From: a virus
Taxonomy: Duplodnaviria > Caudoviricetes
Direction: 5' to 3' (one strand)
Length of the DNA: 64,000 nucleotides
IMG/VR virus record: IMGVR_UViG_3300050821_003047
Coordinates: 1,500 to 65,499 of that record
Shown: piece after piece, positions 15,850-37,895 of the stretch
Layout: every line of letters begins with the position of its first letter
How positions within the stretch are numbered: position 1 is the first letter of the stretch
The notes under the pieces: generated by a model
The model's input: the letters and a program-made list of their open reading frames with translations, nothing else
What the model was told of the DNA's origin: nothing
Databases searched by the model: none
Position numbers and translations under genes: made by a program

Positions 15850-16311
15850 ATGGGTTCTCCCTCATATTGGGGTAAGTTAGTAAATTTCGAAGCGGCCCTA
15901 CGCAAGCCTGGGATGGTTGCATTTGGGCTATTCAACCCGGCCGACAACCTCAATTTCATCGCCACGTTTCCCACCGGACCCACTCAGTTTTCTCAATCAA
16001 CAGTGTCGTTCTCTTCTTCTGCGGTCATAGACACATCGACTGCGGACGTGATTACGATTCTCCTCACGGCCCCCGTCACCAGCATGGTGTTGAATTACGG
16101 TGGCGGATCTCTCATACCAACTGGGCAGCGGTTTTGGTTGCGGATCGTGGAGGATTCGACCGGCGGATGGTCGTGTGCTTTGCCATCGAATCTAAACGTT
16201 GACCAGTCCTATGCAATCGACATTGGCGCGAACCGGATAAATATCCTGCCGATGCGATGGAACTCTGTCAACTGGGAATTTTTCGAGGAACCGTTCTCGA
16301 TTCGGGTTTAG
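15850..16311 (+). CDS. putative virion/fibre-associated beta protein
   Basis: Beta-rich, with a LRIVEDSTGGW...P motif typical of fibre C-terminal modules. Confidence 0.5.
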   Translation: MGSPSYWGKLVNFEAALRKPGMVAFGLFNPADNLNFIATFPTGPTQFSQSTVSFSSSAVIDTSTADVITILLTAPVTSMVLNYGGGSLIPTGQRFWLRIVEDSTGGWSCALPSNLNVDQSYAIDIGANRINILPMRWNSVNWEFFEEPFSIRV

Positions 16312-18035: not shown

Positions 18036-18101
18036 TTTTGGTATATACCTTGGACTGATTTTAACGGAAAATGCTAAGATTAGCGCACGGGAGGGTATGC
18101 C

Positions 18102-18452
18102 GTGGCAAAAATGCCGCCGCCTGGCGGGGATGGACATGGGGTGGCGATTATCATCGGAGCGCCGAAGGACGGCAGCGGCGGCAAGATGCCTCCGCCAGGA
18201 TCGGATGCGCCGCAATCGGGCGGGAAGGCCAGTTTAGAGGAGGCCCATGTTATTCCTGCCGATAAGCACTGCATCGATTGCGAAAATTACTCGCCGGATA
18301 CGGGAGATTGTTCGAAAGTGGTCGGCACGCATGATCCAGATGACGCGTGTTATGACTTCTTCGAGCCCGTGGCGGATGACGAGTCGTCTGAGCAGCCCGA
18401 TGCGGACGATCAGCCTCCGATGGCGCAGGGTGCCGGCAACGGCGGTCAATGA
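18102..18452 (+). CDS. small protein with HiPIP-like 4-Cys motif
   Basis: HCIDCENY...DCSKVVGTHDPDDACYDFF. Confidence 0.6.
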   Translation: MAKMPPPGGDGHGVAIIIGAPKDGSGGKMPPPGSDAPQSGGKASLEEAHVIPADKHCIDCENYSPDTGDCSKVVGTHDPDDACYDFFEPVADDESSEQPDADDQPPMAQGAGNGGQ

Positions 18453-21327: not shown

Positions 21328-21510
21328 ATGATACTCCCCGCTGAAAAATTCTGGAAAGCCGTAAAGCTGGGCCAAAAATGGCTGGAAGATCCAAAGACGG
21401 AGGTCTTGTACGCGCACGAGAACGGGGCCGTTATTCGCCGTGATGGCGTCACGCTTTCGGTTCGCAAAGATCCGCCAATGGCTGAGATTAAATTCGATGC
21501 GCCTGCTTAA
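21328..21510 (+). CDS. hypothetical protein
   Basis: Short tiled ORF after the portal. Confidence 0.45.
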   Translation: MILPAEKFWKAVKLGQKWLEDPKTEVLYAHENGAVIRRDGVTLSVRKDPPMAEIKFDAPA

Positions 21511-22187: not shown

Positions 22188-22235
22188 TTCTCCATTGTTG
22201 CATTTTCCACAAATACGTAATATCATCCCAATCAG

Positions 22236-25496: not shown

Positions 25497-26048
25497 ATGC
25501 TGAAATTAGTCATACTCGCTCTGCTGGCCGGGCCGATGTTCGGCCAAAACGGTCAGATGGTCAATCAGGTCAGCGGCTCCCCGCCGAATTCCGTCGTTCA
25601 GCAGTTGCAGTATTCCGGATCGACGCTGGAGGCGGTTTGTTATGGGCCAGCGCTCAACCCGCTTACGACATTCTATAAATCCAGCAGCACCCTGACGAAT
25701 ATCGCCGTATCCACCGGCACTGCCACAATCACGTTCTCCAGCACCTCATACCTCTGGCAAGGGGCTCAAATTACGGTAGCCGGGTCGGCGACGACGGCGC
25801 TCAACGGTTCGTACCGGGTGACGGCTGTTTCCGGATCGACCGCCACGTTTACCACGGCGGCGGTAGACGGAACGTATACCGATGCTGGACTGACCGTATC
25901 CACTACCGCTCCGCTCCTGAACGCCAAAGTGTGGGCGATCCAAATTCTCGTCTACAGTGGGGCGAATTTGATTAACACGTATTGGGCCGGGGTGCCATCG
26001 GTCACGCCCGCCAATGGGTTGATTTGTTCGAATTGGGCGAGTTACTGA
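25497..26048 (+). CDS. signal-peptide-bearing beta-domain protein
   Basis: MLKLVILALLAGPMFG/Q. Carries the internal tail beta-module GAQITVAGS..ALNGSYRVT. Confidence 0.75.
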   Translation: MLKLVILALLAGPMFGQNGQMVNQVSGSPPNSVVQQLQYSGSTLEAVCYGPALNPLTTFYKSSSTLTNIAVSTGTATITFSSTSYLWQGAQITVAGSATTALNGSYRVTAVSGSTATFTTAAVDGTYTDAGLTVSTTAPLLNAKVWAIQILVYSGANLINTYWAGVPSVTPANGLICSNWASY

Positions 26049-26335
26049 TGAAGGCATCGATTGTCCGACTCCTGCTCCGCGTGCTCAATAGCCAGTGGCT
26101 GAATCCCTCTCCGTGCCAATACGGATTCATCGGCAACGTTGATGCATTCAGTTATTCCAGCCTAGCCAGCGAAGAGAAACAAAAACCTGGCATTACGGTT
26201 AAGGAAGTTCTCCATCAAGCCGATCTGTTTCGTTCATGCCCGATTGGCAGAGGAGTTCAGGTACTCGAAAACGAGGAATGGAGAGACGCGAACGTTTGGG
26301 ATCTCCACGAGTTGAAAAACATGGGTAACCGATAA
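26048..26335 (+). CDS. hypothetical protein
   Basis: TGATG coupling with the upstream gene. Confidence 0.5.
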   Translation: MKASIVRLLLRVLNSQWLNPSPCQYGFIGNVDAFSYSSLASEEKQKPGITVKEVLHQADLFRSCPIGRGVQVLENEEWRDANVWDLHELKNMGNR

Positions 26336-27025
26336 ATGGATACCCTGTTGCTCCACAACCTAAACCAACTCCTTGGCCGCGAACTGGGGCGCCACGGGGA
26401 TCGATCCATTTTCGCGTGGAAACATTCGGACGAGTTATTCTGGCCTGCTTTCCAGGCCGGCGAGACGACGCGGGAAAAGCGGGAACTCAAGATCCCCATC
26501 ATCGGCGGTGGCGAAGAGACATGTGTCGAGGAACTCGTTGTTCCCGTCTACCGCAAAGACCGGCAAGTCCGCAACTCGGCGTGGTACGTCACGAAGCTCC
26601 TGACGCCAACGGAGCTTATCTGGGGATGGATCGGGAAGCACGGCGATCCAGTGCCGGATGGCCGCGCGCCGCGCGATGAAGAACTCATCGGCATTTGGAA
26701 TGCGCGATTCCCTGGCGCAGATTTCCCATCTCGCGGATGGCGCGTGCCGACCGACGCCTGCTTGCCGCGATTCGAGGGCGGCCCGCGAGAGCCAAATTTG
26801 GCCGATACCGAGGACTTCATCGCCTGCATTCGCGAGCAAACGCGGCTATCATTCTCGCTGCGGCTGGATGACATGCTCCAGTACGAGGACAGGAAGTCAG
26901 ATGAGCAACGGCGCGAGATCGAGGCCGCCGTGCGGGATTCGTTCCCCGCATTTCTCAACCCGGCCATCGGCAAGCGCAGCAATTTTGTTTCGTTTCCGTG
27001 GAGTAGGAAGGACAGGTTAAACTAA
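26336..27025 (+). CDS. hypothetical protein (late region)
   Basis: 229-aa tiled ORF. Confidence 0.7.
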   Translation: MDTLLLHNLNQLLGRELGRHGDRSIFAWKHSDELFWPAFQAGETTREKRELKIPIIGGGEETCVEELVVPVYRKDRQVRNSAWYVTKLLTPTELIWGWIGKHGDPVPDGRAPRDEELIGIWNARFPGADFPSRGWRVPTDACLPRFEGGPREPNLADTEDFIACIREQTRLSFSLRLDDMLQYEDRKSDEQRREIEAAVRDSFPAFLNPAIGKRSNFVSFPWSRKDRLN

Positions 27026-27030
27026 GCCGT

Positions 27031-27375
27031 ATGATGCAAGCAAACCAGCAGATCAACGAACCGACCCTAACAGGTGCGGTTCAGCAGATTCACGATCACA
27101 TCGCACTTGCGGAGCAACGATTAGCGATACTGCGCGGTCATTTTTGGGGCGAAGGGGAAAGCGGAAGCAATCGCCCTATGCCTACAACCCTCCGTGGCAT
27201 GATCGATGACATCGGCACTCGGCTAGCGTCTCTGTGCGGTGATCTGGCAACGATAAATCAGCGTGTCGGATGCACGCCGGAGCCGAATATGTCATTGCCT
27301 ACGTCACTTGGACTCGCGCAAGGAATTGTCAGCGGCTCCTCTAACGCAACGCAGAACTGGCAACCCCAGAGGTAA
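27031..27375 (+). CDS. hypothetical protein
   Basis: Tiled ORF, helical. Confidence 0.55.
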   Translation: MMQANQQINEPTLTGAVQQIHDHIALAEQRLAILRGHFWGEGESGSNRPMPTTLRGMIDDIGTRLASLCGDLATINQRVGCTPEPNMSLPTSLGLAQGIVSGSSNATQNWQPQR

Positions 27376-27377
27376 CC

Positions 27378-28106
27378 ATGGCTCAATACATCCCCGACGT
27401 CAGATTCATCGCCTCGATCTACCCCGGCGTCCTGCCGACGATTCGCCGTCACTACGGCCCCAGCCGCCAGAGCGAGGGCGTTGGCGCGCAGCGATCGACG
27501 GCGTTCACCCTCCAGCCCGTCGCGCGCGGCAAGAAGCCGTTCGTGCTGCCGCTCTACGACTCGTTCGAGAACGTGCTCGATATCGTTTCGCTATCCAGCA
27601 TGGGAAACAAGGCAGAAAAGCCGCGCCTGCCCAAGCCCGTGCCGGTGGAAACCATCGTGGCCGATCTGCTGAAGGAGTGGACGGGTGGATTGTTCAACGT
27701 GCCACAGGGTGCCATGCCGGGAGTCATTGAGATTCGACCCATGAAGGTCGAACTGGAAAAGTGGGAAAAATCCGGCACGCTTCCCGGCGCTACGGTGTCC
27801 GAACTTGACCAGATGGAGACGCAGCAGACTTTGTATTTCGAGTACCTGTTCACCGAAGGCGAGCGACTGCACAAGCAGAACAACTGGAAGGAAATAACCG
27901 ACACGATGCGGACGGCCGCAGAGTGGCTGGGCCATGAGCGAGAATGGAGCCATCGCGCCATCGCGCGTGACAGTGGCCCATGCCCGTGGTGCCAAGCCAT
28001 CGTTCCCAATATCGCCATCGTCTGCAATACGTGTGGCCGCCAGGTGCGCGAGACGCCGCCGCATTTGGCGCACCTTGAGAAGCCCAGTGCGGCGCTAAGG
28101 CCATAA
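27378..28106 (+). CDS. protein with C-terminal zinc ribbon
   Basis: CPWC...CNTCG. Confidence 0.7.
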   Translation: MAQYIPDVRFIASIYPGVLPTIRRHYGPSRQSEGVGAQRSTAFTLQPVARGKKPFVLPLYDSFENVLDIVSLSSMGNKAEKPRLPKPVPVETIVADLLKEWTGGLFNVPQGAMPGVIEIRPMKVELEKWEKSGTLPGATVSELDQMETQQTLYFEYLFTEGERLHKQNNWKEITDTMRTAAEWLGHEREWSHRAIARDSGPCPWCQAIVPNIAIVCNTCGRQVRETPPHLAHLEKPSAALRP

Positions 28107-28107
28107 C

Positions 28108-28437
28108 ATGCTCTGTCCAAACTGCGATGGAATGCTGAACGCGACGGGATGCCAAGCTTGCGGCTGGAAGTTCGGAGATCCGCACGTGCGGGATGAACGG
28201 GTATTCCCGTTCAACGCGCGGGCGCAATACCCGGAGGGGGTTGCCAAGGGTATCGTCCGGTTTGCCAATCGGGCGGATACTCCAGACGTCCCGCACGAGG
28301 AGGCCAGGGAGGCTGCTACCGTTCCCGTCGTATCTGCGGCTCCGGACCCGGCCTTAAGCGCGCCAGACCCAACGGCGGGTGTTCCTGCCACCGCCAAGCC
28401 AAAACCACGTAGCAAGGGCGACGTGACAATCCAGTGA
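28108..28437 (+). CDS. small Zn-ribbon protein
   Basis: CPNC...CQACG at the N-terminus. Confidence 0.55.
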   Translation: MLCPNCDGMLNATGCQACGWKFGDPHVRDERVFPFNARAQYPEGVAKGIVRFANRADTPDVPHEEAREAATVPVVSAAPDPALSAPDPTAGVPATAKPKPRSKGDVTIQ

Positions 28438-28450
28438 ACCGTTAAATGAC

Positions 28451-29437
28451 ATGGCCGAATGTACAGTCTCCAATGTCTTCGATGACGTTCGGTCCCTGCT
28501 TTCTGACACCCAGATAGCAGGCGGGGAAATTTTCACCAATAATTACCTGCTGACTGGGTATGCAACTGGCGGCGTCATCGGCAGTGGTTCTCTTCTCGGG
28601 GAACCCTACCGCACGATGTACAGCAAGCTGACCGGCGGCAGCAAGCGCGTCCAGCCCACGGCCTACGTCGTTCTGCCGCCGAACACCACCGTCCTGATCC
28701 CGACCACGTACAATATCGTGGATTTCTCCGAACCGGAAATGATTGAGGAATGCGCCGCGACGTCCTCAATCCCGATCGCCACCACGGACACGTCCACGCC
28801 CATTAATGTGACCACCGTGGCTCCGCATGGCCTTGGCGCGACTGGCAGCATGAATGAGGGCCAGGTGTCTGGCGTGGCGAATACGGCGGCTCCGTGGGGG
28901 AATTGGTTTGCTACCGTCACGAGTCCTACGACTTTCTCTTTGAACGGCAGCGCTTCAGACGGGATCGCAGGCACCGGAGGCGCTTTTTACCCGGCCAGTA
29001 ACCAGCCGTTCACGGAGGTTTTCCCATGCGACTTCGCGGCCGCCTTGGATGGATTCCCGCAGTCCACGCTGGGGAATTACCTCTGGGCCAATGGCCGTCT
29101 GACTTTCCGCGGTGCCACCGGACCAGTTCTGCTACGGCTGACGTATTACGCTTCCGGAACGGCCCCGACGAATCCCAACTATGTAATTTGGATCGACAAT
29201 GCGCGGGACTTTCTGGCGCACGCCACGGCGTGCAATGCGGCGCGTTCGAAGCAGTGGTGGAGCATGTTCGAGCGACTCCGAGACAAGGCTTACGGAGATC
29301 CATCGCACCCGGAAGAATTGAGCCTGCTGGATTTGTTCTGGCAGAGTCAGGTAATGGCAGATCAACGCGGGCCATCGAGACGGCAAAGACCATTCAGGGA
29401 TCGGAGATATAAATGGGGAAGCTATTTACTGGGCTGA
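28451..29437 (+). CDS. head-tail adaptor-like protein
   Basis: TVSNVFDDVRSLLSD N-terminal helix and LRLTYYA...DFLAHAT helical C-terminus, with an inserted beta-module. Confidence 0.6.
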   Translation: MAECTVSNVFDDVRSLLSDTQIAGGEIFTNNYLLTGYATGGVIGSGSLLGEPYRTMYSKLTGGSKRVQPTAYVVLPPNTTVLIPTTYNIVDFSEPEMIEECAATSSIPIATTDTSTPINVTTVAPHGLGATGSMNEGQVSGVANTAAPWGNWFATVTSPTTFSLNGSASDGIAGTGGAFYPASNQPFTEVFPCDFAAALDGFPQSTLGNYLWANGRLTFRGATGPVLLRLTYYASGTAPTNPNYVIWIDNARDFLAHATACNAARSKQWWSMFERLRDKAYGDPSHPEELSLLDLFWQSQVMADQRGPSRRQRPFRDRRYKWGSYLLG

Positions 29438-31770
29438 TATTTTCGCTCTTAACCGTGGCCAGCGCCGGGGCGCAGTGTACCCCTGGATTTGATCCTCTTC
29501 TCGGCAAGATCACCTGCCCGCCGGCCGGGGCTCGCGTCTCCAATGCATTCGCAAGCTCGACGGCCGCAGTCACGACGCTGACGGTGGCCGTGAGTCCGCC
29601 CGCCGCATCACTTGCGGCAATCACAACCGCTTGCTTCACGGGAACTACCACACTCACCCCATTCACGGCTTACACGATCGATTCCGCCAGCACAACATCA
29701 AGCGTTATTTTTGACTTCGCCTCCACTGCAAATATCCGATGTACGGTAAATGCGACGGGAGCAGGCCCAGCCGGAACGCCTGGCTCAGCCGGACCACAGG
29801 GTCCAGCCGGTCCCGGCCTCGTAATCGACATGGCCAGCCAGGCTGGAATAGACAGCACGGGAGCCACGGACTCCGCGGCCGGCGCGCGCGCGGTGGTGGC
29901 TGGGCTCGGCTCTACCCCTGCGCAATTGTATTGGCGCACTGGAACCTACAAGTTCTCAACCTGTGGAGCCACGACAGAATCAGCAGTACGCATAAGTTCC
30001 GCATTAAGCATGCGCGGCGACGGGCCAGCGAACACCATTTTTACGGACGTAACGTCTCCGACCTGTGGCGCCCTGTTCGGGTTCTTCTGGAATCCAGGGA
30101 CGGCACCGGTCGACGATTATTCGTGGGAGCAAAACACGGGCTATGCGCTTACGGCCTCGACGCTCGCTATCGGCGCGTCATCCATCACGCTGAGCACGCC
30201 GTCGCAGGCTTCCAATTTCCCCACGGTTGGAGCGTTCGTCTATGTCCGAGGATCGAGCATCGGAACGGGGATGTATCACGGCGAACTAAACAAAGTCGCC
30301 ATTGCGGGAAACACCGGCACGGGCGTGGTGGGGCTGCTGTGGCCGTTATCGTCTGATTTCACGGGCGACACCAGCCCGCAGTTGAATGTTGTGACGAACG
30401 CCGAAGTTGTCCAGAATATCTCGATTCAGGGCATAGGGTGGCAGCATCACGGGAGCTCTTTCGTGATGGCGCAGCAGTTGAATATCGACATTTTCAACAA
30501 CAATTTCACGTTTGTAGGCACGGGTTGCTCAATCGAGACGGCGCAGACCAACTCGATGCGTGGCGTCCACTATCACGACAACGTAGTTGTGAACCCATGC
30601 CAAACGGGCGTCGATGCAGCCCGTAATCCAACAGCGTGGCTAATCGAGAAGAACACTATTACGGCGCAGGTAAATGTTGCCGAGGCGGGAGCGGACGTGG
30701 GCGTTGTGGATAATGACGTGGCGTGCATTATCAATTTGCCGTGCATCCAAACCACGATCACAGGTACGCGGATCGCACTAAACAAGGTGCGCTACACCTA
30801 CACTGGCAGTGGGGTGGCGTTCGCGATTGGCGATAACAATGGCGGCGGGGCCGGGGCAATCAACACCACGGTGACCGGCAACACGATCACGGCGGCCAAT
30901 GCTCCAGGTGGAAGCGTCAACGTGCCGGGCATCCTCCTTACCCAGCCTACGACCGTTGCGCACGACAACAACATCAACTCGGATTCGACCTGCATTGTCG
31001 TAGACGGCTTCGGTATGCAGGTGGCTCAAAATCTATGCAACCTCACCAACAATCTCGGTTTCGGCGGCATGTTGGTCGAGAGCCCCGGTTCACATGCGGT
31101 CCTCATTAACGGGTTCACGATGACGGCCTCGGCGGGCGTGACGCCGCCATCCTGCATTTGGATCGCGAATAATGGCGCGCAGACGGCCGGCACGCAGGCG
31201 TCTTTTGACCACGTAAAATGCGTTGCGTCCTCGAACGGGTTTAATATCATCAACGGCACGAACGATAAGCCAATCATCGGGCCTTCGGTATTCACGGGCA
31301 GCACGCAAATTCAGCCCACGGCTGTTACTGCGACCGTGAATGGTGCGGTGACGGCTCCCGGTTCGCCTGTGGGTAATTGCTATAAAGACAATTTCACATG
31401 GGGGCCGTGCGGGAGCGGAGGTAGCGGCAACGCAAGTGCCTATAGTGGTTCATTTTCGAGTTGCACTTCCTGTTCTATCACTCATAATCTAGGCACGCTT
31501 TACCCGCAATGCACCATATACGACTCTAACGGATGTGGAATTGGATCGACCGGTACGGGACCGGGAGTTGGCGGTAGCTGCGTGGCCACTACGTTGACAA
31601 GCTTTCAAGGACTCACGACGAGCGTTTGGAATTTCCTCTTATCCTCGGCCACAAGCGGCCATGTGACGTGTAGCGCGGTATCGGCGGGCAGTGCGCTGTC
31701 TTGGGCGGCCCTAACCAACAGCCAATGGACGGGTTTAACAAACGGTCAATGGACCGGAATGACGAATTGA
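29413..31770 (+). CDS. signal-peptide-bearing tailspike-like protein (short collagen repeat plus beta-helix)
   Basis: MGKLFTGLIFSLLTVASAGA/Q, GPAGTPGSAGPQGPAGPG, then GIDSTGATDSAA...LYWRTGTY...MRGDG (pectin-lyase-fold start). Cys-rich. Confidence 0.75.
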   Translation: MGKLFTGLIFSLLTVASAGAQCTPGFDPLLGKITCPPAGARVSNAFASSTAAVTTLTVAVSPPAASLAAITTACFTGTTTLTPFTAYTIDSASTTSSVIFDFASTANIRCTVNATGAGPAGTPGSAGPQGPAGPGLVIDMASQAGIDSTGATDSAAGARAVVAGLGSTPAQLYWRTGTYKFSTCGATTESAVRISSALSMRGDGPANTIFTDVTSPTCGALFGFFWNPGTAPVDDYSWEQNTGYALTASTLAIGASSITLSTPSQASNFPTVGAFVYVRGSSIGTGMYHGELNKVAIAGNTGTGVVGLLWPLSSDFTGDTSPQLNVVTNAEVVQNISIQGIGWQHHGSSFVMAQQLNIDIFNNNFTFVGTGCSIETAQTNSMRGVHYHDNVVVNPCQTGVDAARNPTAWLIEKNTITAQVNVAEAGADVGVVDNDVACIINLPCIQTTITGTRIALNKVRYTYTGSGVAFAIGDNNGGGAGAINTTVTGNTITAANAPGGSVNVPGILLTQPTTVAHDNNINSDSTCIVVDGFGMQVAQNLCNLTNNLGFGGMLVESPGSHAVLINGFTMTASAGVTPPSCIWIANNGAQTAGTQASFDHVKCVASSNGFNIINGTNDKPIIGPSVFTGSTQIQPTAVTATVNGAVTAPGSPVGNCYKDNFTWGPCGSGGSGNASAYSGSFSSCTSCSITHNLGTLYPQCTIYDSNGCGIGSTGTGPGVGGSCVATTLTSFQGLTTSVWNFLLSSATSGHVTCSAVSAGSALSWAALTNSQWTGLTNGQWTGMTN

Positions 31771-31777
31771 GGATTAC

Positions 31778-32695
31778 ATGAAAAGACTACTTTTACTCGT
31801 ACTGCTGTCGTCTATACCGGCCTTTGGTCAGTGTATAGGTTCGGCATGGACCACATCAGCAAGCGGCTCAACTACAGCGCAAGGTGAAATCAACCAGAAA
31901 CCCGCGTTCCAATCCTGCCCAGGAACACCCGCGTCCAATTCTCTGGCCTGCACTGTGGGACACGATATAGGAATCAATTCCTCGAACGGGGACTTTTACA
32001 CCTGCTCAGTAACGGGAACTCCAGGGACATGGGTAAAGATCGGTCCCGGCGCGGGTGGATCGGGATGCGTACCGTCTGGGTCGGCGGGTGACCTTCTCGT
32101 TGACAGCGGTTCAGGAACTTGTAACTCGTCAGCGGATTTTGTTTACACCACGCATACGATAGCCGGAGGTGCATCGGGCATCTTGGACCTACACCTAATG
32201 GGAACGAGTGCGTTCAAGGTTCCTGGGGGATTCACGACTGGCGTGTTGCACGTTACAACCTCGACCGGCGCAACGGCTGGTGGCCTAGTTAGCCTCACTG
32301 CGGACGTTACAGGTGTGCTACCAGCGGCCAATGTCGCAGCGGCATTATCGAGCACCACGAGCGTTAACGGAACGACTATTCCGTCCAGTGCCACTCTTGC
32401 CCAGGCAGTAGCTAGTGGTTCTTCCACATTGGGCACGAGCGCCATTTCTTCTGGTGCCTGTGCGACTGTAGTAACGACAACAGCAACAGGTGCAGCAACA
32501 AGTGGTCTTGGTAGTAGGATCACGGCTACTCCTAGTGTTGACCCAACTGGAGTAACGGGCTACGGCCCATCCGCTTCAGGATCTCTATACGTTTGGGTTT
32601 ATCCCACAGCCAACAATGTGAACTTTAAGGTCTGCAACAACACATCAGGGTCCATCACGCCGTCAGCCTTGACCATGAACTGGATCGTCCAATGA
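31778..32695 (+). CDS. signal-peptide-bearing fibre-like protein
   Basis: MKRLLLLVLLSSIPAFG/Q and a VSLTADVTGVLPAANV fibre-type repeat. S/T/G/C-rich. Confidence 0.7.
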   Translation: MKRLLLLVLLSSIPAFGQCIGSAWTTSASGSTTAQGEINQKPAFQSCPGTPASNSLACTVGHDIGINSSNGDFYTCSVTGTPGTWVKIGPGAGGSGCVPSGSAGDLLVDSGSGTCNSSADFVYTTHTIAGGASGILDLHLMGTSAFKVPGGFTTGVLHVTTSTGATAGGLVSLTADVTGVLPAANVAAALSSTTSVNGTTIPSSATLAQAVASGSSTLGTSAISSGACATVVTTTATGAATSGLGSRITATPSVDPTGVTGYGPSASGSLYVWVYPTANNVNFKVCNNTSGSITPSALTMNWIVQ

Positions 32696-33450
32696 AGATG
32701 CTATTTTTTATAGCCGCTCTCACTATAAATGCTAGTGCTCAGATACCAGTTGGGGGCGTCACTGCGGCGGGAGGCATTATAAACCCCTTCATTGTTTCCA
32801 GCACGGCGAACGCCGCATCAACCGCTCCAGCGGTGACAACCGGAATGAATACCACTGGAGCAACACTTCTAACCTTAGCTATTTCAAGTTTTTCAAATGA
32901 CCCAGATGGAAGCGCCAGCATTGTAGATGCTGTAGGCGGGAACGCAGCTTGTAATAATGTTGGTGGTGGACCGCCAGCCTGGACGCCATTTGGTACTAGT
33001 TACGCAAGCGGATCTAACGTAATAACAAATTTGTTCTATTGCACCCCTGCTCACACGGGTGCGGGTCATACCGTCACGGTAACTGGGCTACAGTTTCCAG
33101 CGGTTGTGTTCACAGCCTGGAACATAAAAACAACTCTGGATGTGGTTAATGGGGCAGGAAGCTCAGGCAGCGTCACGACGCTATCATCCGGCAGTAGCGG
33201 CTCTCCCGCAGGGTCGGGAGAGCTATTTATCACCGGCTACGGTTCCAACGGCACATCCACAGGCGCGCTGAGCGTTAATTCTGGTTGGACGATTCCGACT
33301 AATGGCACAATCTTTAACGGAGCCAACGGGAACACCAGTTTGAACACCGGGATAGCTTGGCAGATTGGCGGCGCGGGCGCTCTTACCGGGACTTGGACTG
33401 ACACGGGCAACAGCACCACGATGACCGCCTTTGTGGTGGCATTTAAATAA
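32692..33450 (+). CDS. signal-peptide-bearing beta-sandwich protein
   Basis: MKMLFFIAALTINASA/Q. T/G/S-rich, ends VVAFK. Confidence 0.7.
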   Translation: MKMLFFIAALTINASAQIPVGGVTAAGGIINPFIVSSTANAASTAPAVTTGMNTTGATLLTLAISSFSNDPDGSASIVDAVGGNAACNNVGGGPPAWTPFGTSYASGSNVITNLFYCTPAHTGAGHTVTVTGLQFPAVVFTAWNIKTTLDVVNGAGSSGSVTTLSSGSSGSPAGSGELFITGYGSNGTSTGALSVNSGWTIPTNGTIFNGANGNTSLNTGIAWQIGGAGALTGTWTDTGNSTTMTAFVVAFK

Positions 33451-33452
33451 CT

Positions 33453-36400
33453 ATGCGAACTCTATCTCTACTACTGATCCTTGCTGGCGCGGCGCAGGCA
33501 CAATTGACGGTCACTCGCGTTTACTGGGAATCGGGAACCAACCCAAGCCCCGACTTCAACCAGTGGACGAATATGAGTTTTGACCCGTTCATTGGCAAAA
33601 CAATCCTGCATACAAACAACGAAGTCGTACAGAGCGGCTTCCCACAAAACATCTTCTCTGATTCACTGTTTACTTGGGACGGCGGGACGCACGGCACCAT
33701 CCCTGATGTATCTGCTCTAGTGATAAAGAGCTTTCTTGGTGGCGCTGACCAACCATGTGGTTCAGTGATAAACAATTACCCCCGCCGCCACCATCCCGAA
33801 ATTACCCAAATGGTTGACACCAAGCGGCATCTATTTATAGATGGTCCCGGCCCTTGCACCAGCACCTCTGGAAGCTGGAGCGGCCTGCCAATTAATGGCT
33901 GGTGGTGGACTGACACCTCTACATTGACGACGTGGGGGCAGTTATCGGAGACTGCCTCTTCAACTCCAGTTACACTGCCTCTATCTGCCGGAAATCAATC
34001 CTTTACCGTTGCCAGTTGCGGACCAGCCCAGGTAGGAGGAATCACCGGAGCGCAATCAGTCTCGACCGGAGCATGGATAACCGGGAACCTCACCTCTTGT
34101 TCCGGAACCACCCTAATAATCAATGTGCTGTTCAGCGGCGGTACTGGCACATTCTCTGATTGGAATATCACCTTAAGTAATGACTGGAGTCAATCTGCCA
34201 CTTATGACAGCACCGATGACGCCATATTTTCCACCGACCGCGAAGGCAACACAGTCTCAGTAACTCGCGTTTACTGTACTACGATGCCGGTCGGCGGCGG
34301 AACTCCAAGCGGTGTCCTTTCTGCTCAACAAACCGCACGGGGAGTTTGCACAGTCCCTGACCAATGGGTAATTCTTAATACCAATACCCCCCCGGACGGA
34401 ATGGCTCTGGCTGCTTTTCGGTACGATGCGACCACTGACTTGCTTGTATTCTACGGTGGGTTCAGTAGCCAAAATCCCAGTGGAGAAATGACTGAAACAT
34501 GGGTGCTTTCTCCGTCCTCATGTGCAACGACCTGTAACTGGGTTAAGCCAGCGACCGCTAACTCTCCGGCGACTCAGCCTAGCACTCAATGCTGGCAACC
34601 GCCTAGCGCATCCTGTACCCCTGCTGGTCTAATTGGATTCGCGGGTGATGTCGCGAATGGAACATTTTATTACTTCCGGCCCGACGTAACGTCAGAACTG
34701 TGGGCCTTGAATCTCACAACCCTAACCTGGACTAAGATGAGTTTAACTGGCTACAATGCGCCAAATCCAATCTATATGGCGTATGACTCACTCCACCAAA
34801 AGCTAATCTCGTACGGTAACTGGGGTAGTCCGGCTCTCGACCTTGTAGAGATTCAGCTACCGACGACCGCTTCGGGCCAGTTTAGAACTCTTGGGACATG
34901 GGACGGGACGAACATAAAGTGGCTGGAGGTAGCTGGCGAAATCTCGTCACTGAGCGCGGGTGCGACCGGAACGGTGACGCTCACGGGTCCAGGAATCAGC
35001 ATACCCATCAGCGTGCAGGAGGCGATCTATCCCGGAGGGCCGACTGCGGGGATCGCGAGAACGAATGAACCGTTCCGTCAGGGAATCCCGATTCCGTTAT
35101 CGGCGGGGTTGACCAGTACGAGCGGACTTAGTCTGAGCAACACTAACGTAGTCTCGAATTCCAACATGGCCGTGGATAACGGCACCAACATCACCGTGGC
35201 GACCGGCGCTTGCACGTTCACGTTGGTTAAGGCCCATCACAACGGCCTGGATACCGTGGTATGCGGATCGACCACCGTGGTCTCCACCGGCACCGCAGTA
35301 GGCTTTGCGCTGACCGGCCCGCTCCCCACGGCTACCTACCCCGGCAATGCGACGTGCTCGCCGCAGTCGGGCGGATCGACCTGTGCTACTCTCTACACAA
35401 GCGCTCACGACCCTAATTCTACGTGCTCCATCGAGGTCAACGGGCCGCTCTATGCAGACATTCTCTGCACGGGCGTTCACGGCGACGGCTCGGGACACAC
35501 TTATATGGGATGGACGGCCCGCTATTATTTCTGGGCCGGGGAAAGCTACGTAAAGGTCACGCAGAGCCTGCGCAATGCCTTTTACGACGGCACGAATAAC
35601 GATTTCACTACCGCATTCAAAGGGTTCAAAAGCTTCGAATTTCGCACAACCCCGGCAATCTCAGGCACTCTGAGCTATCAAGTAGCCGTGGATTCGGCGT
35701 CCTGCACTAGCGGCGTGTGCTCCGGAACCATGACCACGAGCGACACCGTGACCGTTTACCAAGCGCAAAACACGTCCTCTATATCCCAGTGGGGCGACTG
35801 CTCGACCGCGTGCCTAAACCTCTACACGCCTGACGTAGGGTATGCCGCAAAAAAGAACGGCACCACGCTGGCGTCTGATACCACCGGGAATGTCTTCGTT
35901 GGCGGTTGGGCAGACATCGCCAACGGATCGGGTGTGGGTGTCCAGATCGGCGTGTATCAGGGGGCGGGATATTTCCCCAAGTCCTGGGAGTTCGACAGTG
36001 GAACTGACGTTCGCATTGGGTTGTGGCCCTCGGAGAGTAGCCAGAACTACTACCTTGGATACCCACAGTACGACACGCAGGACATCTACCTGAACTTTCA
36101 CACGTCGGCACTGTCCAATCCCACGCAGAGCTTCCAGAAGCTACAGACTTACCTACTCGCCCGCGCTCCTATCTCACAGTACAACACTGCTGGCGTCTTC
36201 CCCTACCCTCTCGTTCCGGCCGCAACCCAAGACATCTACTACAATACTGTAGGGCCAGCCTCGAATCCAACAATCGCGGCCACTCAGTTCTGTCTAAATG
36301 TCTCTACTGGCTGCATTGCGGACTACGCTCCATTTGCCTACCGTAATTACGGTTGGGCTGGTGGAACTGGAACCAATCAAGTAGAGTTCCGCTGGAGCGA

Positions 36401-37895
36401 TCTCCAAAACTTCTTGATTCGCGGTTATACGGGACGCTGGCTTAACTCATCACACTTTTACCGAATGGAGCAGGAAAAAACATGGCCTAGGGCAGATGGT
36501 ACAGCGCTCGGCGGTCCAAGTAACTTTACTTGGCGCTCAGAACCTATTGGAAGTATGAACACGGTTGATCCAGCAGGCGGTACGCCAAACGGGTTCATTT
36601 CGGACAATAGTACTTTATTTTTTACCAACTACTTCCAACAAGATGGCCAGCACACTCACTTGTGGGGCATCAACGACTACTATATGATGACCGGCGATGA
36701 GACGATGCATGATGCGATCCTTGACGGTTACTTAAACGTATTCCTGGACACGCGGACTTATATTTCGGGTACGACATACACTAGTGGATTCTCGAATACC
36801 CAAAGTTCCCGATCGATCGGCAGCACGATGACGGCTGGAACAGCCCTATACCAACTGCTAGCCGACACAGGCAACTCCAACTCCTCATCCGTGTTGAGCT
36901 ACCTCGACACGCTTTACACCAACACCGTCCTACCGACATTCTGCACTACCGCTCTATGTAATATAAACGTTCCGCCCAGTGTCGGTATAAGTCTCCAGAG
37001 AGGATTCCCGTGGGGCGGTAGCGGACTTGATAATCAATGTACGGGAGGATCTCAACTACCGGCGCAACACTTCTTTTTCCCGACTACCCTAGCAGAGGGC
37101 GTCTGGCGATACCGCGCAGCGAAAGGATCTTCGTGGAGTGGCTACACTACCGCTCTCGATTACATCGATGGCATAACCAACTTCCAGCTTCATGAATTCG
37201 TAATTAATGACGGTTCAGGAATCTGGAGCAATGGTTCATTAGGGTTCCAGTTCCCGACTAATGGGTGGCGTTACGACATACAACTTACGGTCCCTAATAA
37301 CTGTGGCAGTGGCGAGTACAATCCGAATCCCGGCCTAGAGGGGATGTGGAATACTTGGTACTACCACTCGCAGATTTATGGAGCACTACCCACAGTCCAA
37401 CTCCAGAATGTAGCTTATGCATTTGATCAAAACCAGAGCGGTGGAGTTCCAACTAACCCCGGCGGCGGCACGTCAGATTGGGGTATGTATCAAGCGGCTA
37501 ACGTGATAAATCTGATAGAGAATCCGCCAGTTGGCACCCTTCAGGATCTAACGATCACTAGTTTCGTAGATCACGGGGGAGGTTCCTACACCATCGGCTG
37601 GACAACACCCACAAGCACAACCGCGCTCAGAGCTAAATGGGGTCTGACTCAAATCGTAGATTGGATTGGATTCGATAATTTCAATGGCGTATACATTGGC
37701 AACCCGACGACAACCCAAAACTGGTTCGCCTCAACCGAAGTGCCAAGTATGCCGTCTCCATCTGCCGGATCGCAGACGGTGACTGTTTCGACTGGACAGA
37801 CAGGCCTGACCGCACCGAATTTTATGGTACGGGCAATGACTTCAGGCTCTCTTCCTCCGAGTACGGGGATCAAGATGCCTACGGCGATTAGATAG
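33453..37895 (+). CDS. large signal-peptide-bearing protein: Kelch-like propeller plus exo-rhamnogalacturonan-lyase (PcRGLX/YetA)-like region
   Basis: MRTLSLLLILAGAAQA/Q. Kelch-like LVFYGG..ETWVL..W, then RTNEPFRQGIP, TWDGTNIKW and DGQHTHLWGINDYYMMTGDE. Confidence 0.65.
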   Translation: MRTLSLLLILAGAAQAQLTVTRVYWESGTNPSPDFNQWTNMSFDPFIGKTILHTNNEVVQSGFPQNIFSDSLFTWDGGTHGTIPDVSALVIKSFLGGADQPCGSVINNYPRRHHPEITQMVDTKRHLFIDGPGPCTSTSGSWSGLPINGWWWTDTSTLTTWGQLSETASSTPVTLPLSAGNQSFTVASCGPAQVGGITGAQSVSTGAWITGNLTSCSGTTLIINVLFSGGTGTFSDWNITLSNDWSQSATYDSTDDAIFSTDREGNTVSVTRVYCTTMPVGGGTPSGVLSAQQTARGVCTVPDQWVILNTNTPPDGMALAAFRYDATTDLLVFYGGFSSQNPSGEMTETWVLSPSSCATTCNWVKPATANSPATQPSTQCWQPPSASCTPAGLIGFAGDVANGTFYYFRPDVTSELWALNLTTLTWTKMSLTGYNAPNPIYMAYDSLHQKLISYGNWGSPALDLVEIQLPTTASGQFRTLGTWDGTNIKWLEVAGEISSLSAGATGTVTLTGPGISIPISVQEAIYPGGPTAGIARTNEPFRQGIPIPLSAGLTSTSGLSLSNTNVVSNSNMAVDNGTNITVATGACTFTLVKAHHNGLDTVVCGSTTVVSTGTAVGFALTGPLPTATYPGNATCSPQSGGSTCATLYTSAHDPNSTCSIEVNGPLYADILCTGVHGDGSGHTYMGWTARYYFWAGESYVKVTQSLRNAFYDGTNNDFTTAFKGFKSFEFRTTPAISGTLSYQVAVDSASCTSGVCSGTMTTSDTVTVYQAQNTSSISQWGDCSTACLNLYTPDVGYAAKKNGTTLASDTTGNVFVGGWADIANGSGVGVQIGVYQGAGYFPKSWEFDSGTDVRIGLWPSESSQNYYLGYPQYDTQDIYLNFHTSALSNPTQSFQKLQTYLLARAPISQYNTAGVFPYPLVPAATQDIYYNTVGPASNPTIAATQFCLNVSTGCIADYAPFAYRNYGWAGGTGTNQVEFRWSDLQNFLIRGYTGRWLNSSHFYRMEQEKTWPRADGTALGGPSNFTWRSEPIGSMNTVDPAGGTPNGFISDNSTLFFTNYFQQDGQHTHLWGINDYYMMTGDETMHDAILDGYLNVFLDTRTYISGTTYTSGFSNTQSSRSIGSTMTAGTALYQLLADTGNSNSSSVLSYLDTLYTNTVLPTFCTTALCNINVPPSVGISLQRGFPWGGSGLDNQCTGGSQLPAQHFFFPTTLAEGVWRYRAAKGSSWSGYTTALDYIDGITNFQLHEFVINDGSGIWSNGSLGFQFPTNGWRYDIQLTVPNNCGSGEYNPNPGLEGMWNTWYYHSQIYGALPTVQLQNVAYAFDQNQSGGVPTNPGGGTSDWGMYQAANVINLIENPPVGTLQDLTITSFVDHGGGSYTIGWTTPTSTTALRAKWGLTQIVDWIGFDNFNGVYIGNPTTTQNWFASTEVPSMPSPSAGSQTVTVSTGQTGLTAPNFMVRAMTSGSLPPSTGIKMPTAIR

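What the first reader, a model, noticed from the sequence alone, without database searches (positions are those of the whole stretch)
25497..37895. Sec-exported tail module: five signal-peptide proteins, all cleaving before Gln, in the virion operon
Seen: MLKLVILALLAGPMFG/Q (25497), MGKLFTGLIFSLLTVASAGA/Q (29413), MKRLLLLVLLSSIPAFG/Q (31778), MKMLFFIAALTINASA/Q (32692) and MRTLSLLLILAGAAQA/Q (33453). Each has a basic n-region, hydrophobic core, small residue at -1 and Gln at +1. Four form a tightly coupled 8.5-kb block wedged between the adaptor and nozzle genes. They have receptor-binding architectures (collagen plus beta-helix, fibre repeat, propeller plus glycan lyase) and many Cys, often paired. 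Known: tailed-phage fibres normally fold and attach in the cytoplasm, disulfides form in the periplasm, and N-terminal Gln after SPase I can cyclise to pyroglutamate. Inference: a split assembly pathway in which appendages mature in the periplasm and join the particle at or after lysis. Alternatively, a secreted or surface apparatus that strips capsule for release or superinfection exclusion. This is the best candidate for an undescribed system here.
Basis: partly seen in the sequence, partly recalled or inferred. Interest (0 to 1): 0.88.

Follow-up and report, generated by a model that had tools for sequence, protein, structure and literature searches.

The report
Phage fibre genes carrying export signals
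A complete 65-kb soil phage, probably of Acidobacteria, puts ordinary bacterial secretion signals and paired cysteines on five fibre-, lectin- and sugar-cutting-type proteins of its late operon, so these almost certainly fold outside the cytoplasm where the particle is built, and whether they then join the particle is still open.

Summary
All five ORFs start as quoted, with a basic n-region, a hydrophobic core and A/G before Gln. My heuristic expects 0.02-0.05 such starts among 26 late ORFs, and 0 of 2000 shuffles reached 4. The leaders are conserved: all 34 aligned members of the 25497 family keep the leader, the +1 Gln and two Cys. Mature Cys counts are all even, at 2.05% against 0.73% in the other late proteins.

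The feature is not peculiar to this phage. Similar leader-bearing blocks occur in close relatives, in five other viral contigs, and in cultured Tunturiibacter phages Tunturi 2 and 5, but not in Tunturi 3 and 4. In Cellulophaga phage phi18:3, three leader-bearing proteins are annotated as MS/MS-detected structural proteins.

Gln at +1 matches the known Bacteroidetes Q-rule, although the host here is probably Terriglobales.

I rate export at about 0.85. What happens afterwards is open: about 0.45 that the proteins act on the envelope or EPS without entering virions, and about 0.35 that they dock on particles at lysis. The "adaptor" and "nozzle" labels could not be verified.

This scan has noted the same phenomenon many times on other DNA.

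The parts
25497..26048 (+). 183-aa exported small beta-barrel (lectin-like) protein. The leader is about residues 1-16, ending G before Q17. It lies just downstream of the capsid-like gene 23694.
   Evidence: N-terminus read. The search found 36 hits including self. In the 34-row alignment the leader-like N-terminus is present in every row, and Q17, C48 and C177 are invariant. AlphaFold2 gave pLDDT 89.5. Foldseek matched only beta-barrel domains of phage endosialidases, fibres and spikes, at TM 0.36-0.41.
29413..31770 (+). 785-aa exported mosaic fibre/glycanase-like protein. The order is leader (1-20, A before Q21), Cys-loop, beta-rich N-module, short GXY run (118-135), pectate-lyase-like beta-helix module (about 137-630) and C-module (about 636-785). 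It has 22 Cys.
   Evidence: Searches give the sequence features. HMMER against 1.84 billion representatives gave 28 non-self hits that share only one module each. All 13 proteins fetched have leader-like N-termini. Of 8 central-module members, 3 hit PF12708 and 1 hits Beta_helix, while the window piece hits none.
31778..32695 (+). 305-aa exported Cys-rich (8 Cys) protein with leader 1-17, G before Q18. Its C-terminal domain resembles viral hypothetical clusters.
   Evidence: In the Atlas the feature scores are at most 0.88, which is a lead only. The C-terminal residues 171-305 align at TM 0.85 (measured on the hit) to a 115-aa viral cluster. The N-terminal part is 43% identical to the leader-bearing ORF L048:11668.
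32692..33450 (+). 252-aa exported protein (2 Cys) with leader 1-16, A before Q17. It belongs to a fold family seen mainly in viral clusters.
   Evidence: In the Atlas the feature scores are 0.95-0.96 and the structural TM is 0.68-0.78, to clusters that are 87-100% viral (Uroviricota). No match was found among cultured phages or IMG/VR by close search.
33453..37895 (+). 1480-aa exported giant protein with leader 1-16 (A before Q17), a Kelch-type propeller region, a PcRGLX/YetA-like (polysaccharide-lyase-like) core, and 26 Cys.
   Evidence: Pfam PcRGLX_2nd matched at E 0.0034 and 16.9 bits, below the 23.5-bit cut-off. There are 16 non-self homologues, on contigs up to 318 kb; 8 of the 16 carry PF21345 and several carry Kelch or Big domains. 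My heuristic called 12 of the 16 leader-like.
28451..29437 (+). It has no leader, and its stop overlaps the start of 29413.
   Evidence: It is 70-87% identical in relatives. Its identity was not established: Pfam, PHROG and PDB searches were blank and the model failed with pLDDT 31.4.
37912..40131 (+). It has no leader.
   Evidence: It is 61-67% identical in 4 of 5 relatives' records searched. The only family hits are weak: E1_FCCH at 26.5 bits, below the 29.5-bit cut-off, and phrog_3287 at E 0.0049. The PDB sequence search found nothing.
40698..42344 (+). 548-aa leaderless protein (1 Cys) with an N-terminus conserved among relatives and a variable C-terminus. It is a candidate conventional fibre or needle.
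   Evidence: BLAST aligns residues 1-364 at 66% to G003, 1-350 at 56% to L008, and 1-122 at 47% to G005; the rest is unaligned or weak. E1_FCCH-like barrel hit at E 1.3e-4.
16308..18215 (-). Opposite-strand beta-helix-like ORF. Its homologues in relatives carry a leader ending A before QQVDW, but the window copy appears to lack one.
   Evidence: The alignment begins at the relatives' mature N-terminus. The corresponding motif in the window follows an internal Met, with no hydrophobic leader directly before it.

Best explanation
The five ORFs encode genuine Sec/signal-peptidase-I pre-proteins. I infer that they are translated late from the structural operon, threaded through SecYEG and cut after A/G. 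This leaves an N-terminal Gln that could cyclise to pyroglutamate. They would then fold with disulfides in the periplasm of an acidobacterial (probably Terriglobales) host.

The four-gene block, together with the small barrel protein, is a mobile cassette of exported proteins. It holds a mosaic fibre, lectin-like proteins and beta-helix or lyase-type proteins.

My most likely reading of its job is that it works outside the cytoplasm on the infected cell's own envelope polysaccharide (EPS, capsule or LPS). It would bind and cut this from the inside out. That would free progeny from the matrix and from cell debris, and perhaps remove receptors so that superinfection is excluded. On this reading the basic particle, with a leaderless fibre or needle candidate (40698), is built in the cytoplasm without these proteins.

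Shown: leader anatomy, its conservation, the Cys pattern, cassette behaviour, and bacterial secreted-type homologues.
Inferred: export, cleavage, pyroGlu, disulfides, the glycan target and non-incorporation.

I put export itself at about 0.85. The confidence given here is for the full statement, including 'not a virion part'.
For: - Leaders are far beyond chance.
- Leaders are conserved. In the 25497 family all 34 aligned rows are leader-like, with invariant +1 Gln and two invariant Cys. All 13 module-sharing relatives of 29413 are leader-like, and in 11 of 13 the first polar residue is Q after A/G/S.
- Mature Cys counts are all even and about 2.8 times denser than in the other late proteins.
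- 33453 belongs to a family of leader-bearing proteins found on contigs up to 318 kb, that is, on bacterial chromosomes, with PcRGLX, Kelch and Big domains.
- The block behaves as a cassette. Relatives G003, G005, G006 and G001:C6 have a leaderless protein of about 465 aa at this site instead. G003 carries a different four-gene leader block directly after the capsid gene. G005 and G006 keep only the small protein.
- The 29413 N-module occurs in leader blocks on five other viral contigs with different backbones.
- A leaderless candidate fibre exists at 40698.
- In cultured Tunturi 2 the leader block (gp12-17) abuts the endolysin cassette. Phages Tunturi 3 and 4, which infect the same host genus, have leaderless fibres, so the host does not force export.
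- Bdellovibrio MAT fibres show that Sec-exported, surface-displayed mosaic trimers resembling tail fibres exist (PMC10769870, passages).
- Phage proteins obeying the Q-rule were read as envelope modifiers in P. gingivalis phages (PMC10367356, passages).
Against: - The genes sit exactly where podovirus fibres and spikes usually sit. They are packed with, and probably translationally coupled to, conserved particle genes.
- No promoter or terminator signal above chance sets them apart.
- Their architecture is that of receptor-binding proteins. The Atlas neighbours of 31778 and 32692 are viral clusters, not bacterial ones.
- The barrel of 25497 is the same kind of domain as in the leaderless late proteins 37912 and 40698.
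- In Cellulophaga phage phi18:3 three consecutive leader-bearing proteins, gp085-087, are annotated 'structural protein, experimental MS/MS'. This argues that such proteins can end up in virion preparations.
- A periplasmic protein has no obvious route to surface EPS, and no secretion-system signal was found (one search was blank).
- No trained predictor and no experiment backs the export claim.
Confidence: 0.45

Rival explanations
1. Two-compartment assembly. The block proteins are the phage's host-recognition appendages. They are exported, oxidatively folded and N-terminally capped in the periplasm. They dock onto cytoplasm-built, fibre-less particles only when holin, endolysin and spanin action merges the compartments at lysis.
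For: - The genes sit in a fibre-typical position and are tightly coupled with the conserved tail-module genes.
- In the window and in G004 the block replaces the leaderless protein of about 465 aa that relatives have at the same site.
- The block has collagen-like, beta-helix and mosaic architecture, with a conserved N-module and swapped distal modules, as in tail fibres.
- The Atlas neighbours are viral.
- Genes annotated 'tail fiber protein' or 'virion structural protein' in cultured Tunturi 2 (gp12, 13, 17) and Tunturi 5 (gp338-342) carry the same leaders.
- phi18:3 gp085-087 are leader-bearing and MS/MS-annotated structural proteins, while the 9 other MS/MS-annotated structural proteins I checked have no leader.
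Against: - I found no described mechanism or precedent for tailed phages. Searches produced no paper that describes it.
- The N-module is shared among unrelated backbones, which is odd for a domain that must dock on a specific tail.
- No similarity was found to any known fibre anchor domain.
- A leaderless fibre or needle candidate exists (40698).
- Close relatives do without the block.
- The Tunturi annotations come from similarity, not proteomics: 'mass spectrometry' occurs 0 times in PMC11924767.
- MS of virion preparations can pick up co-purifying exported proteins or vesicles.
Confidence: 0.35
2. The proteins are not exported. On this reading the hydrophobic N-termini are relics of genes captured from host secreted proteins, or they serve as transient membrane anchors or oligomerisation helices. 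The proteins then fold and assemble in the cytoplasm like ordinary fibres.
For: - 33453 is related to bacterial secreted-type proteins, so a leader could have been inherited passively.
- One beta-helix gene (16308-18215, minus strand) appears to lack the leader that its homologues in G003 and G005 have. Leaders are therefore gained and lost.
Against: - A relic would decay. Instead the leader and the +1 Gln are kept in all 34 aligned members of the 25497 family at 34-76% identity. They are also kept across module-swapped relatives.
- 31778 and 32692 look phage-typical rather than host-derived, yet they carry leaders.
- High and even Cys counts fit an oxidising compartment.
Confidence: 0.1
3. 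Host-benefit cargo (auxiliary metabolic genes or morons). The block would consist of secreted carbohydrate-active enzymes and adhesins that feed or equip the host rather than serve the infection cycle.
For: - Soil viruses are known to carry CAZyme genes. In PMC13507307, 5% (3261 of 64,678) of prophage CAZymes were reported to have signal peptides (passages).
- Homologues of 33453 are bacterial polysaccharide-lyase-like proteins.
Against: - The genome has direct terminal repeats, and no integrase was seen among the 29 window ORFs that I scanned against Pfam, although I did not scan every ORF.
- The genes are embedded in the late operon, expressed when the cell is about to die.
- Three of the five proteins are not recognisable enzymes.
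Confidence: 0.07

Closest known systems
Leader-bearing structural proteins gp085, gp086 and gp087 of Cellulophaga phage phi18:3 (KC821620, Pachyviridae, podovirus of a Bacteroidota host)
   Same: These are three consecutive large late proteins whose N-termini look like Sec leaders ending S/A before Gln. The GenBank record labels them 'structural protein, annotation based on experimental MS/MS proteomics analysis'.
   Different: - The host phylum is different.
- They contain almost no Cys (0, 1 and 3), against 2-26 here.
- I did not test sequence similarity.
- They lie apart from the other structural genes, next to a glycosyl-hydrolase (lysis-type) gene.
- The source paper (recalled as Holmfeldt et al. 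2013) was not held. I therefore do not know whether the leaders were noticed or how pure the particles were.
Tunturiibacter phages Tunturi 2 (PP885685, gp12-gp17) and Tunturi 5 (PP885688, gp338-gp342), which are cultured phages of Acidobacteriaceae (PMC11924767)
   Same: - The probable host group is the same.
- Each has a block of leader-bearing, Cys-rich, beta-helix or fibre-type genes; in Tunturi 2 it lies directly after a 330-aa 'tail protein'.
- Q follows the likely cleavage site in 4 of 5 and 4 of 5 proteins by eye.
- The Tunturi 2 domains are pectate-lyase-like and beta-helix.
   Different: - There is no BLAST-detectable relation of Tunturi 2 to the window proteins.
- In Tunturi 2 the block abuts the endolysin gene.
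- Tunturi 5 is a 309-kb myovirus.
- The paper's text has 0 occurrences of 'signal peptide' (listing) and no virion proteomics.
Bdellovibrio bacteriovorus MAT (mosaic adhesive trimer) fibres (PMC10769870)
   Same: These are Sec leaders followed by a conserved beta-rich N-domain of about 130 aa and swapped adhesive tips on trimeric fibres resembling phage tail fibres. They are displayed outside the cytoplasm (passages). 29413 has the same logic: leader, then a shared N-module, then swapped distal modules.
   Different: - MAT fibres are chromosomal genes of a predator, not of a phage.
- Homology of the N-domains was not tested.
- No S74 chaperone domain was found here (Pfam blank).
Bacteroidetes Q-rule (PMC5837995), and the Q-rule proteins of Porphyromonas gingivalis phages (PMC10367356)
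   Same: Gln lies immediately after the SPase I site. Phage genes that copy the host's leader style have been noted in print and were read as envelope modifiers.
   Different: - The rule was described as specific to Bacteroidetes, and Acidobacteria are not mentioned (0 occurrences).
- The host here is probably Terriglobales.
- The P. gingivalis genes were of unknown function and were not described as fibres. Supplementary Data 4 of that paper was not seen.
Classical podovirus fibres and tailspikes (T7 gp17, P22 gp9, K1F endosialidase; names recalled)
   Same: The gene position in the tail module is the same. The architecture is trimeric stalk, beta-helix or lectin-barrel; Foldseek hits of 25497 include K1F and phi92 endosialidase barrels.
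   Different: - As far as I recall, the classical proteins have no signal peptide and fold in the cytoplasm.
- No homology to their N-terminal anchor domains was detected here.

Membership tests
Sec-dependent type I (SPase I) signal peptide | Positively charged n-region within the first few residues | tested here: met
   All five ORFs have K or R at residue 2 or 3.
Sec-dependent type I (SPase I) signal peptide | Uncharged hydrophobic h-region of about 8 or more residues | tested here: met
   My heuristic finds an 8-residue window with mean Kyte-Doolittle of at least 1.8 in all five ORFs.
Sec-dependent type I (SPase I) signal peptide | Small uncharged residues at -1 and -3, and no lipobox Cys at +1 | tested here: met
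   Position -1 is G, A, G, A, A. Position -3 is M, A, A, A, A; the M in 25497 is atypical. Position +1 is Q in all five. Cys occurs at +2 in two of them, not at +1.
Sec-dependent type I (SPase I) signal peptide | Call by a trained predictor (SignalP or similar) and experimental cleavage or export | not testable with these tools
   No predictor or experiment was available. Conservation of the leader in 34 of 34 and 13 of 13 relatives is the indirect support.
Bacteroidetes Q-rule substrates | Gln at +1 of the SPase I site | tested here: met
   This holds for 5 of 5 ORFs here. The Q17 column is invariant in 34 rows.
Bacteroidetes Q-rule substrates | Host belongs to Bacteroidota | tested here: not met
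   Relatives of the capsid-like gene lie in MAGs titled 'uncultured Terriglobales bacterium' and 'Acidobacteriaceae bacterium'. This rests on binning and is not proof.
Bacteroidetes Q-rule substrates | Host encodes a glutaminyl cyclase, and host leaders show the same bias | tested here: inconclusive
   PF05096 is present in 1 of the 2 MAGs, but also in 3 of 14 control genomes. Q follows the plausible site in 28 of 67 MAG leader candidates against 4 of 15 in 100 kb of E. coli. The rule is crude and the sample small.
Podovirus tail fibre / tailspike (virion receptor-binding protein) | Encoded within the tail-gene module | tested here: inconclusive
   The genes lie between two late genes conserved in the relatives that cover the site. 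Those two genes could not be identified as adaptor and nozzle.
Podovirus tail fibre / tailspike (virion receptor-binding protein) | N-terminal domain homologous to a known particle-binding anchor | tested here: not met
   There are no significant Pfam, PHROG, NCBIfam or PDB sequence matches for the N-terminal parts.
Podovirus tail fibre / tailspike (virion receptor-binding protein) | Presence in purified virions | not testable with these tools
   The only evidence is the analogy to phi18:3 gp085-087, from the MS/MS note in the GenBank record.
Pectate-lyase-like right-handed beta-helix enzymes (PF12708 / PF13229) for 29413 | Profile match over the family's cut-off | tested here: inconclusive
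   The window piece gives no hit. Of 8 aligned central-module members, 3 match PF12708 (best E 5.1e-9) and 1 matches Beta_helix (3.8e-11). PDB profile hits are weak, at E 0.023-0.1.
PcRGLX/YetA-like polysaccharide-lyase-like proteins (PF21345) for 33453 | Profile match over cut-off; catalytic residues | tested here: inconclusive
   The match is 16.9 bits against a cut-off of 23.5. Of 16 homologues, 8 carry precomputed PF21345. Catalytic residues were not examined.
Bdellovibrio MAT-type exported mosaic fibres | Leader, then a conserved beta-rich N-domain, then swapped distal modules | tested here: met
   The N-module (about residues 8-182) is shared with 7 proteins that have different C-termini. 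This is the same design; homology to the MAT N-domain was not tested.

The most novel reading that the evidence does not exclude
In several unrelated lineages of tailed phages of Acidobacteria (and of Bacteroidota), the host-recognition gear is made as ordinary Sec substrates. Fibres, spikes and lectin-like accessories would be folded with disulfides and capped with pyroglutamate in the periplasm. They would dock on cytoplasm-built, fibre-less particles only when lysis merges the two compartments. This would be a two-compartment assembly line that textbook tailed-phage morphogenesis does not include. The window's block 29413-37895, plus 25497, would be one such set.
Probability: 0.35. Interest if true: 0.9.

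Novelty: new variant of a known kind. Interest (0 to 1): 0.7.

Why it matters
All parts of a tailed-phage particle are thought to fold and assemble in the cytoplasm. Here, fibre- and depolymerase-type late proteins are built like the host's secreted proteins. The same design recurs in several lineages, including cultured phages.

One possibility is that phages commonly deploy an exported fibre and glycanase toolkit against the envelope or matrix of the cell they are about to lyse. That would be relevant to release, superinfection exclusion and soil carbon turnover.

The other possibility is that receptor-binding proteins mature in the periplasm and join the particle at lysis. That would change how host range, fibre engineering and virion proteomics are interpreted for these phages.

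It also suggests that the Gln+1 / pyroglutamate habit may extend beyond Bacteroidota.

Tunturi 2 and 5 and phi18:3 are in culture, so the question can be tested directly.

Tried and rejected
- **Family searches.** Pfam, PHROG and NCBIfam searches on the five proteins and their flanks were almost blank.
- **PDB sequence and profile searches.** Searches with 33453, 29413, the 25497 family, 37912, 28451, the capsid-like family and the 29413 central module gave nothing at E < 0.02.
- **Cultured phage records.** tblastn of 18941, 33453, 32692, 29413 and 25497 against 50,697 records found no match.
- **Other close searches.** The word-index homologue search for 29413 found only 1 non-self hit. The close-relative scan of IMG/VR with 32692 found none.
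- **Fold of 28451.** AlphaFold2 from a 5-row alignment failed (pLDDT 31.4). I did not search its fold, and the names 'adaptor' and 'nozzle' stay unverified.
- **Cleavage-site scorer.** My first scorer placed sites inside the h-region and was discarded in favour of the 'first polar residue' rule.
- **E. coli control.** The control for the host Gln bias is too small to decide (4 of 15 against 28 of 67).
- **25078.** My heuristic flagged it, but I rejected it as a leader protein because its G004 homologue has a polar insertion there.
- **Lipoprotein and T9SS readings.** The lipoprotein reading is rejected because Q, not Cys, is at +1. A T9SS C-terminal signal is not supported (NCBIfam blank).
- **Promoters and terminators.** The scan of 23-42.9 kb found nothing above shuffles.
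- **Complex prediction.** The job used the 29413 N-module in 3 copies with mature 25497 and returned 'no answer'. This is no evidence either way.
- **Literature.** Five searches found no paper describing Sec leaders on tailed-phage fibres. These searches cover only the held library.
- **Papers not seen.** The Holmfeldt 2013 paper (recalled) was not held. Supplements are closed and I did not ask for any. Supplementary Data 4 of PMC10367356 and the annotation tables of PMC11924767 may list signal-peptide calls that bear on novelty.

Full report
**What the window is.** The window is bases 1500-65499 of a 65,499-bp IMG/VR virus record with direct terminal repeats, rated 100% complete. It is a tailed phage. 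ORF 13291-15690 is a large terminase (phrog_38, E 1.8e-73; Pfam Terminase_6C, E 3.9e-12). ORF 18941 has a weak portal hit (phrog_156, E 1.5e-4). The other late genes are too divergent to name. Pfam, PHROG, NCBIfam and PDB sequence searches are nearly blank. Five tblastn searches against 50,697 cultured phage records found nothing. I call 23694 'capsid-like' only because of its position and its conservation.

**The observation.** Each has K/R at position 2-3, a hydrophobic core, G or A at -1 and Gln at +1. I had no trained predictor, so I wrote a crude rule: net positive n-region, an 8-residue uncharged window with mean hydropathy of at least 1.8, and a first polar residue that is Q preceded by A/G/S.
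- The rule flags 5 of 26 late-operon ORFs. The fifth reader ORF, 32692, is missed because of an Asn in 'NASA' before the Gln.
- The extra ORF flagged, 25078, is dubious, because its homologue in G004 has a polar insertion there.
- The same rule hits 7 of 7778 internal pseudo-N-termini, which gives 0.02 expected for 26 ORFs.
- Shuffles of residues 2-45 gave a mean of 0.05 and a maximum of 2, and 0 of 2000 reached 4.
- The block 29413-37895 is 8,483 bp. Its junctions are a 25-nt overlap, a 7-nt gap, a 4-nt overlap, a 2-nt gap and a 16-nt gap.
- No promoter- or terminator-like site exceeds shuffles in 23-42.9 kb.

**Are the leaders under selection?** Yes.
- *25497.* It has 36 hits including itself. 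In the 34-row alignment (34-76% identity) every row has a leader-like N-terminus, and Q17, C48 and C177 are invariant.
- *29413.* It is a mosaic. HMMER against 1.84 billion representatives gave 28 non-self hits, each sharing only the N-module (about residues 8-182), the central module (about 137-630) or the C-module (about 636-785). All 13 proteins that I fetched are leader-like, and in 11 of 13 the first polar residue is Q after A/G/S.
- *33453.* It has 16 non-self homologues. My rule of them leader-like, 7 with Q.
- *Cysteines.* Mature Cys counts are 2, 22, 8, 2 and 26, all even. That is 2.05% (60/2920), against 0.73% (57/7841) in the 21 other late ORFs. The putative internal proteins 44149-48593 have none. 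This fits disulfide formation in an oxidising compartment.

**What the proteins look like.**
- *25497.* It folds confidently (pLDDT 89.5). Foldseek matches only partial beta-barrel domains of phage endosialidases, fibres and spikes (E down to 1.5e-4, TM 0.36-0.41). The same barrel type (Pfam E1_FCCH, below cut-off) appears in the leaderless late proteins 37912 and 40698.
- *29413.* It has one GXY run (118-135). Its central module has relatives that hit PF12708 in 3 of 8 members and Beta_helix in 1 of 8. The window piece itself hits none.
- *33453.* It has a sub-threshold PcRGLX hit. Its homologues lie on contigs up to 318 kb; 8 of 16 carry PF21345, and some also carry Kelch and Big domains. 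This is a bacterial secreted-enzyme family.
- *31778 and 32692.* By contrast, their nearest Atlas clusters are viral. For 32692 the feature scores are 0.95-0.96 and TM is 0.68-0.78. For 31778 the values are leads only.

**Host and the Gln.** Relatives of the capsid-like gene lie in MAG contigs titled 'uncultured Terriglobales bacterium' and 'Acidobacteriaceae bacterium'. This rests on binning and is not proof. GC is 0.51-0.63 in 2-kb windows.

Gln at +1 is the published Bacteroidetes Q-rule, in which the exposed Gln is cyclised to pyroglutamate (PMC5837995, abstract and passages). That paper does not mention Acidobacteria. Phage genes obeying the rule were noted in P. gingivalis phages and read as possible outer-membrane modifiers (PMC10367356, passages).

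In about 640 kb of the two MAGs my rule finds Q after a plausible site in 28 of 67 candidates (6/12 and 22/55). In 100 kb of E. coli K-12 it finds 4 of 15. This is suggestive and not significant. One MAG encodes a Glu_cyclase_2 protein, but 3 of 14 control genomes do too. A search for Acidobacteria + glutaminyl cyclase + signal peptide found 0 papers. The Gln is therefore best read as host-style leader design, not as a peculiarity of this module.

**Synteny.** The capsid-like gene brought in 10 related IMG/VR loci.
- Between the conserved 328-aa and 739-aa genes, G003 (complete, 64 kb), G005, G006 and G001:C6 have a leaderless protein of about 465 aa with three internal repeats (my reading of the printed sequences).
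- The window and G004 instead have leader blocks there. G004 has three leader-bearing ORFs of 864, 550 and 1219 aa.
- G003 has a different four-gene leader block directly after the capsid-like gene, where the window has 25078 and 25497.
- The window has no homologue of the 465-aa protein at E 1e-4.
- 40698 has no leader and 1 Cys. It is conserved at its N-terminus and variable at its C-terminus among relatives, which is the usual signature of a fibre or needle.

**Beyond this clade.** An alignment of the 29413 N-module found five further viral contigs (GC 0.56-0.62). Each has runs of 1-6 leader-like ORFs on different backbones.
- One run lies just upstream of a portal homologue that is 23% identical.
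- One lies directly after a TerL-portal-capsid series.
- One 96-kb phage has homologues of the 25497 C-terminal part, the 29413 N-module and the 31778 N-terminal part as consecutive genes.

Cultured phages give the same picture.
- *Tunturi 2* (host Tunturiibacter psychrotolerans). Directly after the 330-aa 'tail protein' gp11 come gp12, 13, 14, 16 and 17, with leader-like starts and 20, 10, 21, 2 and 34 Cys. They include pectate-lyase-like and beta-helix plus chitobiase-C domains, and the endolysin gene follows them. Tunturi 2 has no BLAST relation to the window.
- *Tunturi 5.* gp338-342 are also leader-like.
- *Tunturi 3 and Tunturi 4.* Their fibres have no leader. My rule gives 0 Q-type hits in 97 genes of Tunturi 3. 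Tunturi 3 infects the same host strain as Tunturi 2, so the host does not impose export.
- *The Tunturi paper.* It contains 'signal peptide' 0 times (listing) and 'mass spectrometry' 0 times.

By eye, over the outputs, Gln follows the likely cleavage site in 38 of 45 leader-bearing block proteins.

**Do such proteins reach virions?** The one experimental anchor I could check is Cellulophaga phage phi18:3. The record annotates gp085, gp086 and gp087 as 'structural protein, annotation based on experimental MS/MS proteomics analysis'. All three begin with leaders ending S/A before Gln. The 9 other MS/MS-annotated structural proteins I translated do not. I could not read the source paper, so particle purity and stoichiometry are unknown to me. 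On the other side, Bdellovibrio MAT fibres show that mosaic trimers resembling tail fibres, with a leader and a conserved N-domain, can be purely cell-surface devices (PMC10769870, passages).

**Weighing.** I rate export at about 0.85, from the anatomy, the conservation, the Cys pattern and the host style. What happens afterwards is open.

For a non-virion, envelope- or EPS-directed role (0.45):
- The topology problem: particles are built in the cytoplasm.
- The cassette is mobile across unrelated backbones.
- Close relatives do without it.
- A leaderless fibre candidate exists.
- 33453 has bacterial secreted-type kin.
- The block lies next to lysis genes in Tunturi 2 and phi18:3.

For docking on particles at lysis (0.35):
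- The genes sit in the fibre position and are tightly coupled to conserved late genes.
- The block replaces the 465-aa protein found at that site in relatives.
- The architecture is that of receptor-binding proteins.
- The nearest neighbours of 31778 and 32692 are viral.
- The MS/MS note for phi18:3.

Smaller shares go to 'not exported' (0.10) and host-benefit cargo (0.07).

**Relation to earlier notes of this scan.** The scan has reported leader-bearing fibre blocks many times on other DNA, including Acidobacteria phages and the Tunturi and phi18:3 comparisons. A first-reader note exists on relative G003. I reached Tunturi 2 independently. I took the phi18:3, Tunturi 5 and MAT leads from those notes and checked each here.

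**Verdict.** The feature is real, conserved and well beyond chance, and I did not find it described in print for tailed phages in five searches of the held library. It is best filed as a new variant of known things, namely phage fibres and depolymerases on one side and phage-encoded exported proteins on the other. The mechanism after export is undecided, and it is directly testable in cultured phages.

Noticed in passing
window 16308-18215 (-): This is an opposite-strand beta-helix-like ORF between the terminase region and the portal-like gene. Its homologues in G003 (601 aa) and G005 (778 aa) start with a leader ending A before QQVDW. In the window copy the same motif follows an internal Met with no convincing leader. 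Leaders therefore seem to be gained or lost within one gene family.
   Followed up: partly
window 25497, 37912 (res 498-550), 40698 (res 260-311): One small beta-barrel domain (Pfam E1_FCCH-like, below cut-off) recurs in two leaderless late proteins. By fold matches to endosialidase barrels it also recurs in the exported 25497. From reading the consensus of alignment A4, 28451 seems to contain a similar stretch, but I did not test this.
   Followed up: partly
relatives: L039:12390-13793(-) (G003), G005 21307-22710, L008:15228-16616: A leaderless protein of about 465 aa with three internal repeats of about 115 aa occupies the site between the 328-aa and 739-aa genes in four relatives. The window lacks it. 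It has no Pfam hit.
   Followed up: partly
window 42661-42864 and 42771-42989 (+): Two small overlapping ORFs (67 and 72 aa) have one or two hydrophobic segments and look holin-like. I recognised no endolysin among the ORFs that I scanned.
   Followed up: no
loci L015-L034, L057-L076 (MAGs G001, G002): Many leader-like N-termini of the probable host MAGs also end A/G before Gln (28 of 67 by a crude rule). One MAG encodes a Glu_cyclase_2 protein (E 2.4e-96). A Q-rule-like habit may therefore exist in Terriglobales. I found no paper on this.
   Followed up: partly
window 51955-54243 (-): A 762-aa protein fuses SNF2-type helicase domains with an N6/N4 DNA methylase domain.
   Followed up: no
window 50459-51649 (+): The last gene of the putative ejection-protein series carries a histidine-phosphatase (His_Phos_1) domain at E 1.2e-15. 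It is conserved in G003 and G005 at 53-58% identity.
   Followed up: no
window 25078-25449 (+): This 123-aa ORF between the capsid-like gene and 25497 has a weakly hydrophobic N-terminus ending A before Q at residue 31. My rule flags it, but its G004 homologue has a polar insertion there, so it is probably not a leader.
   Followed up: partly
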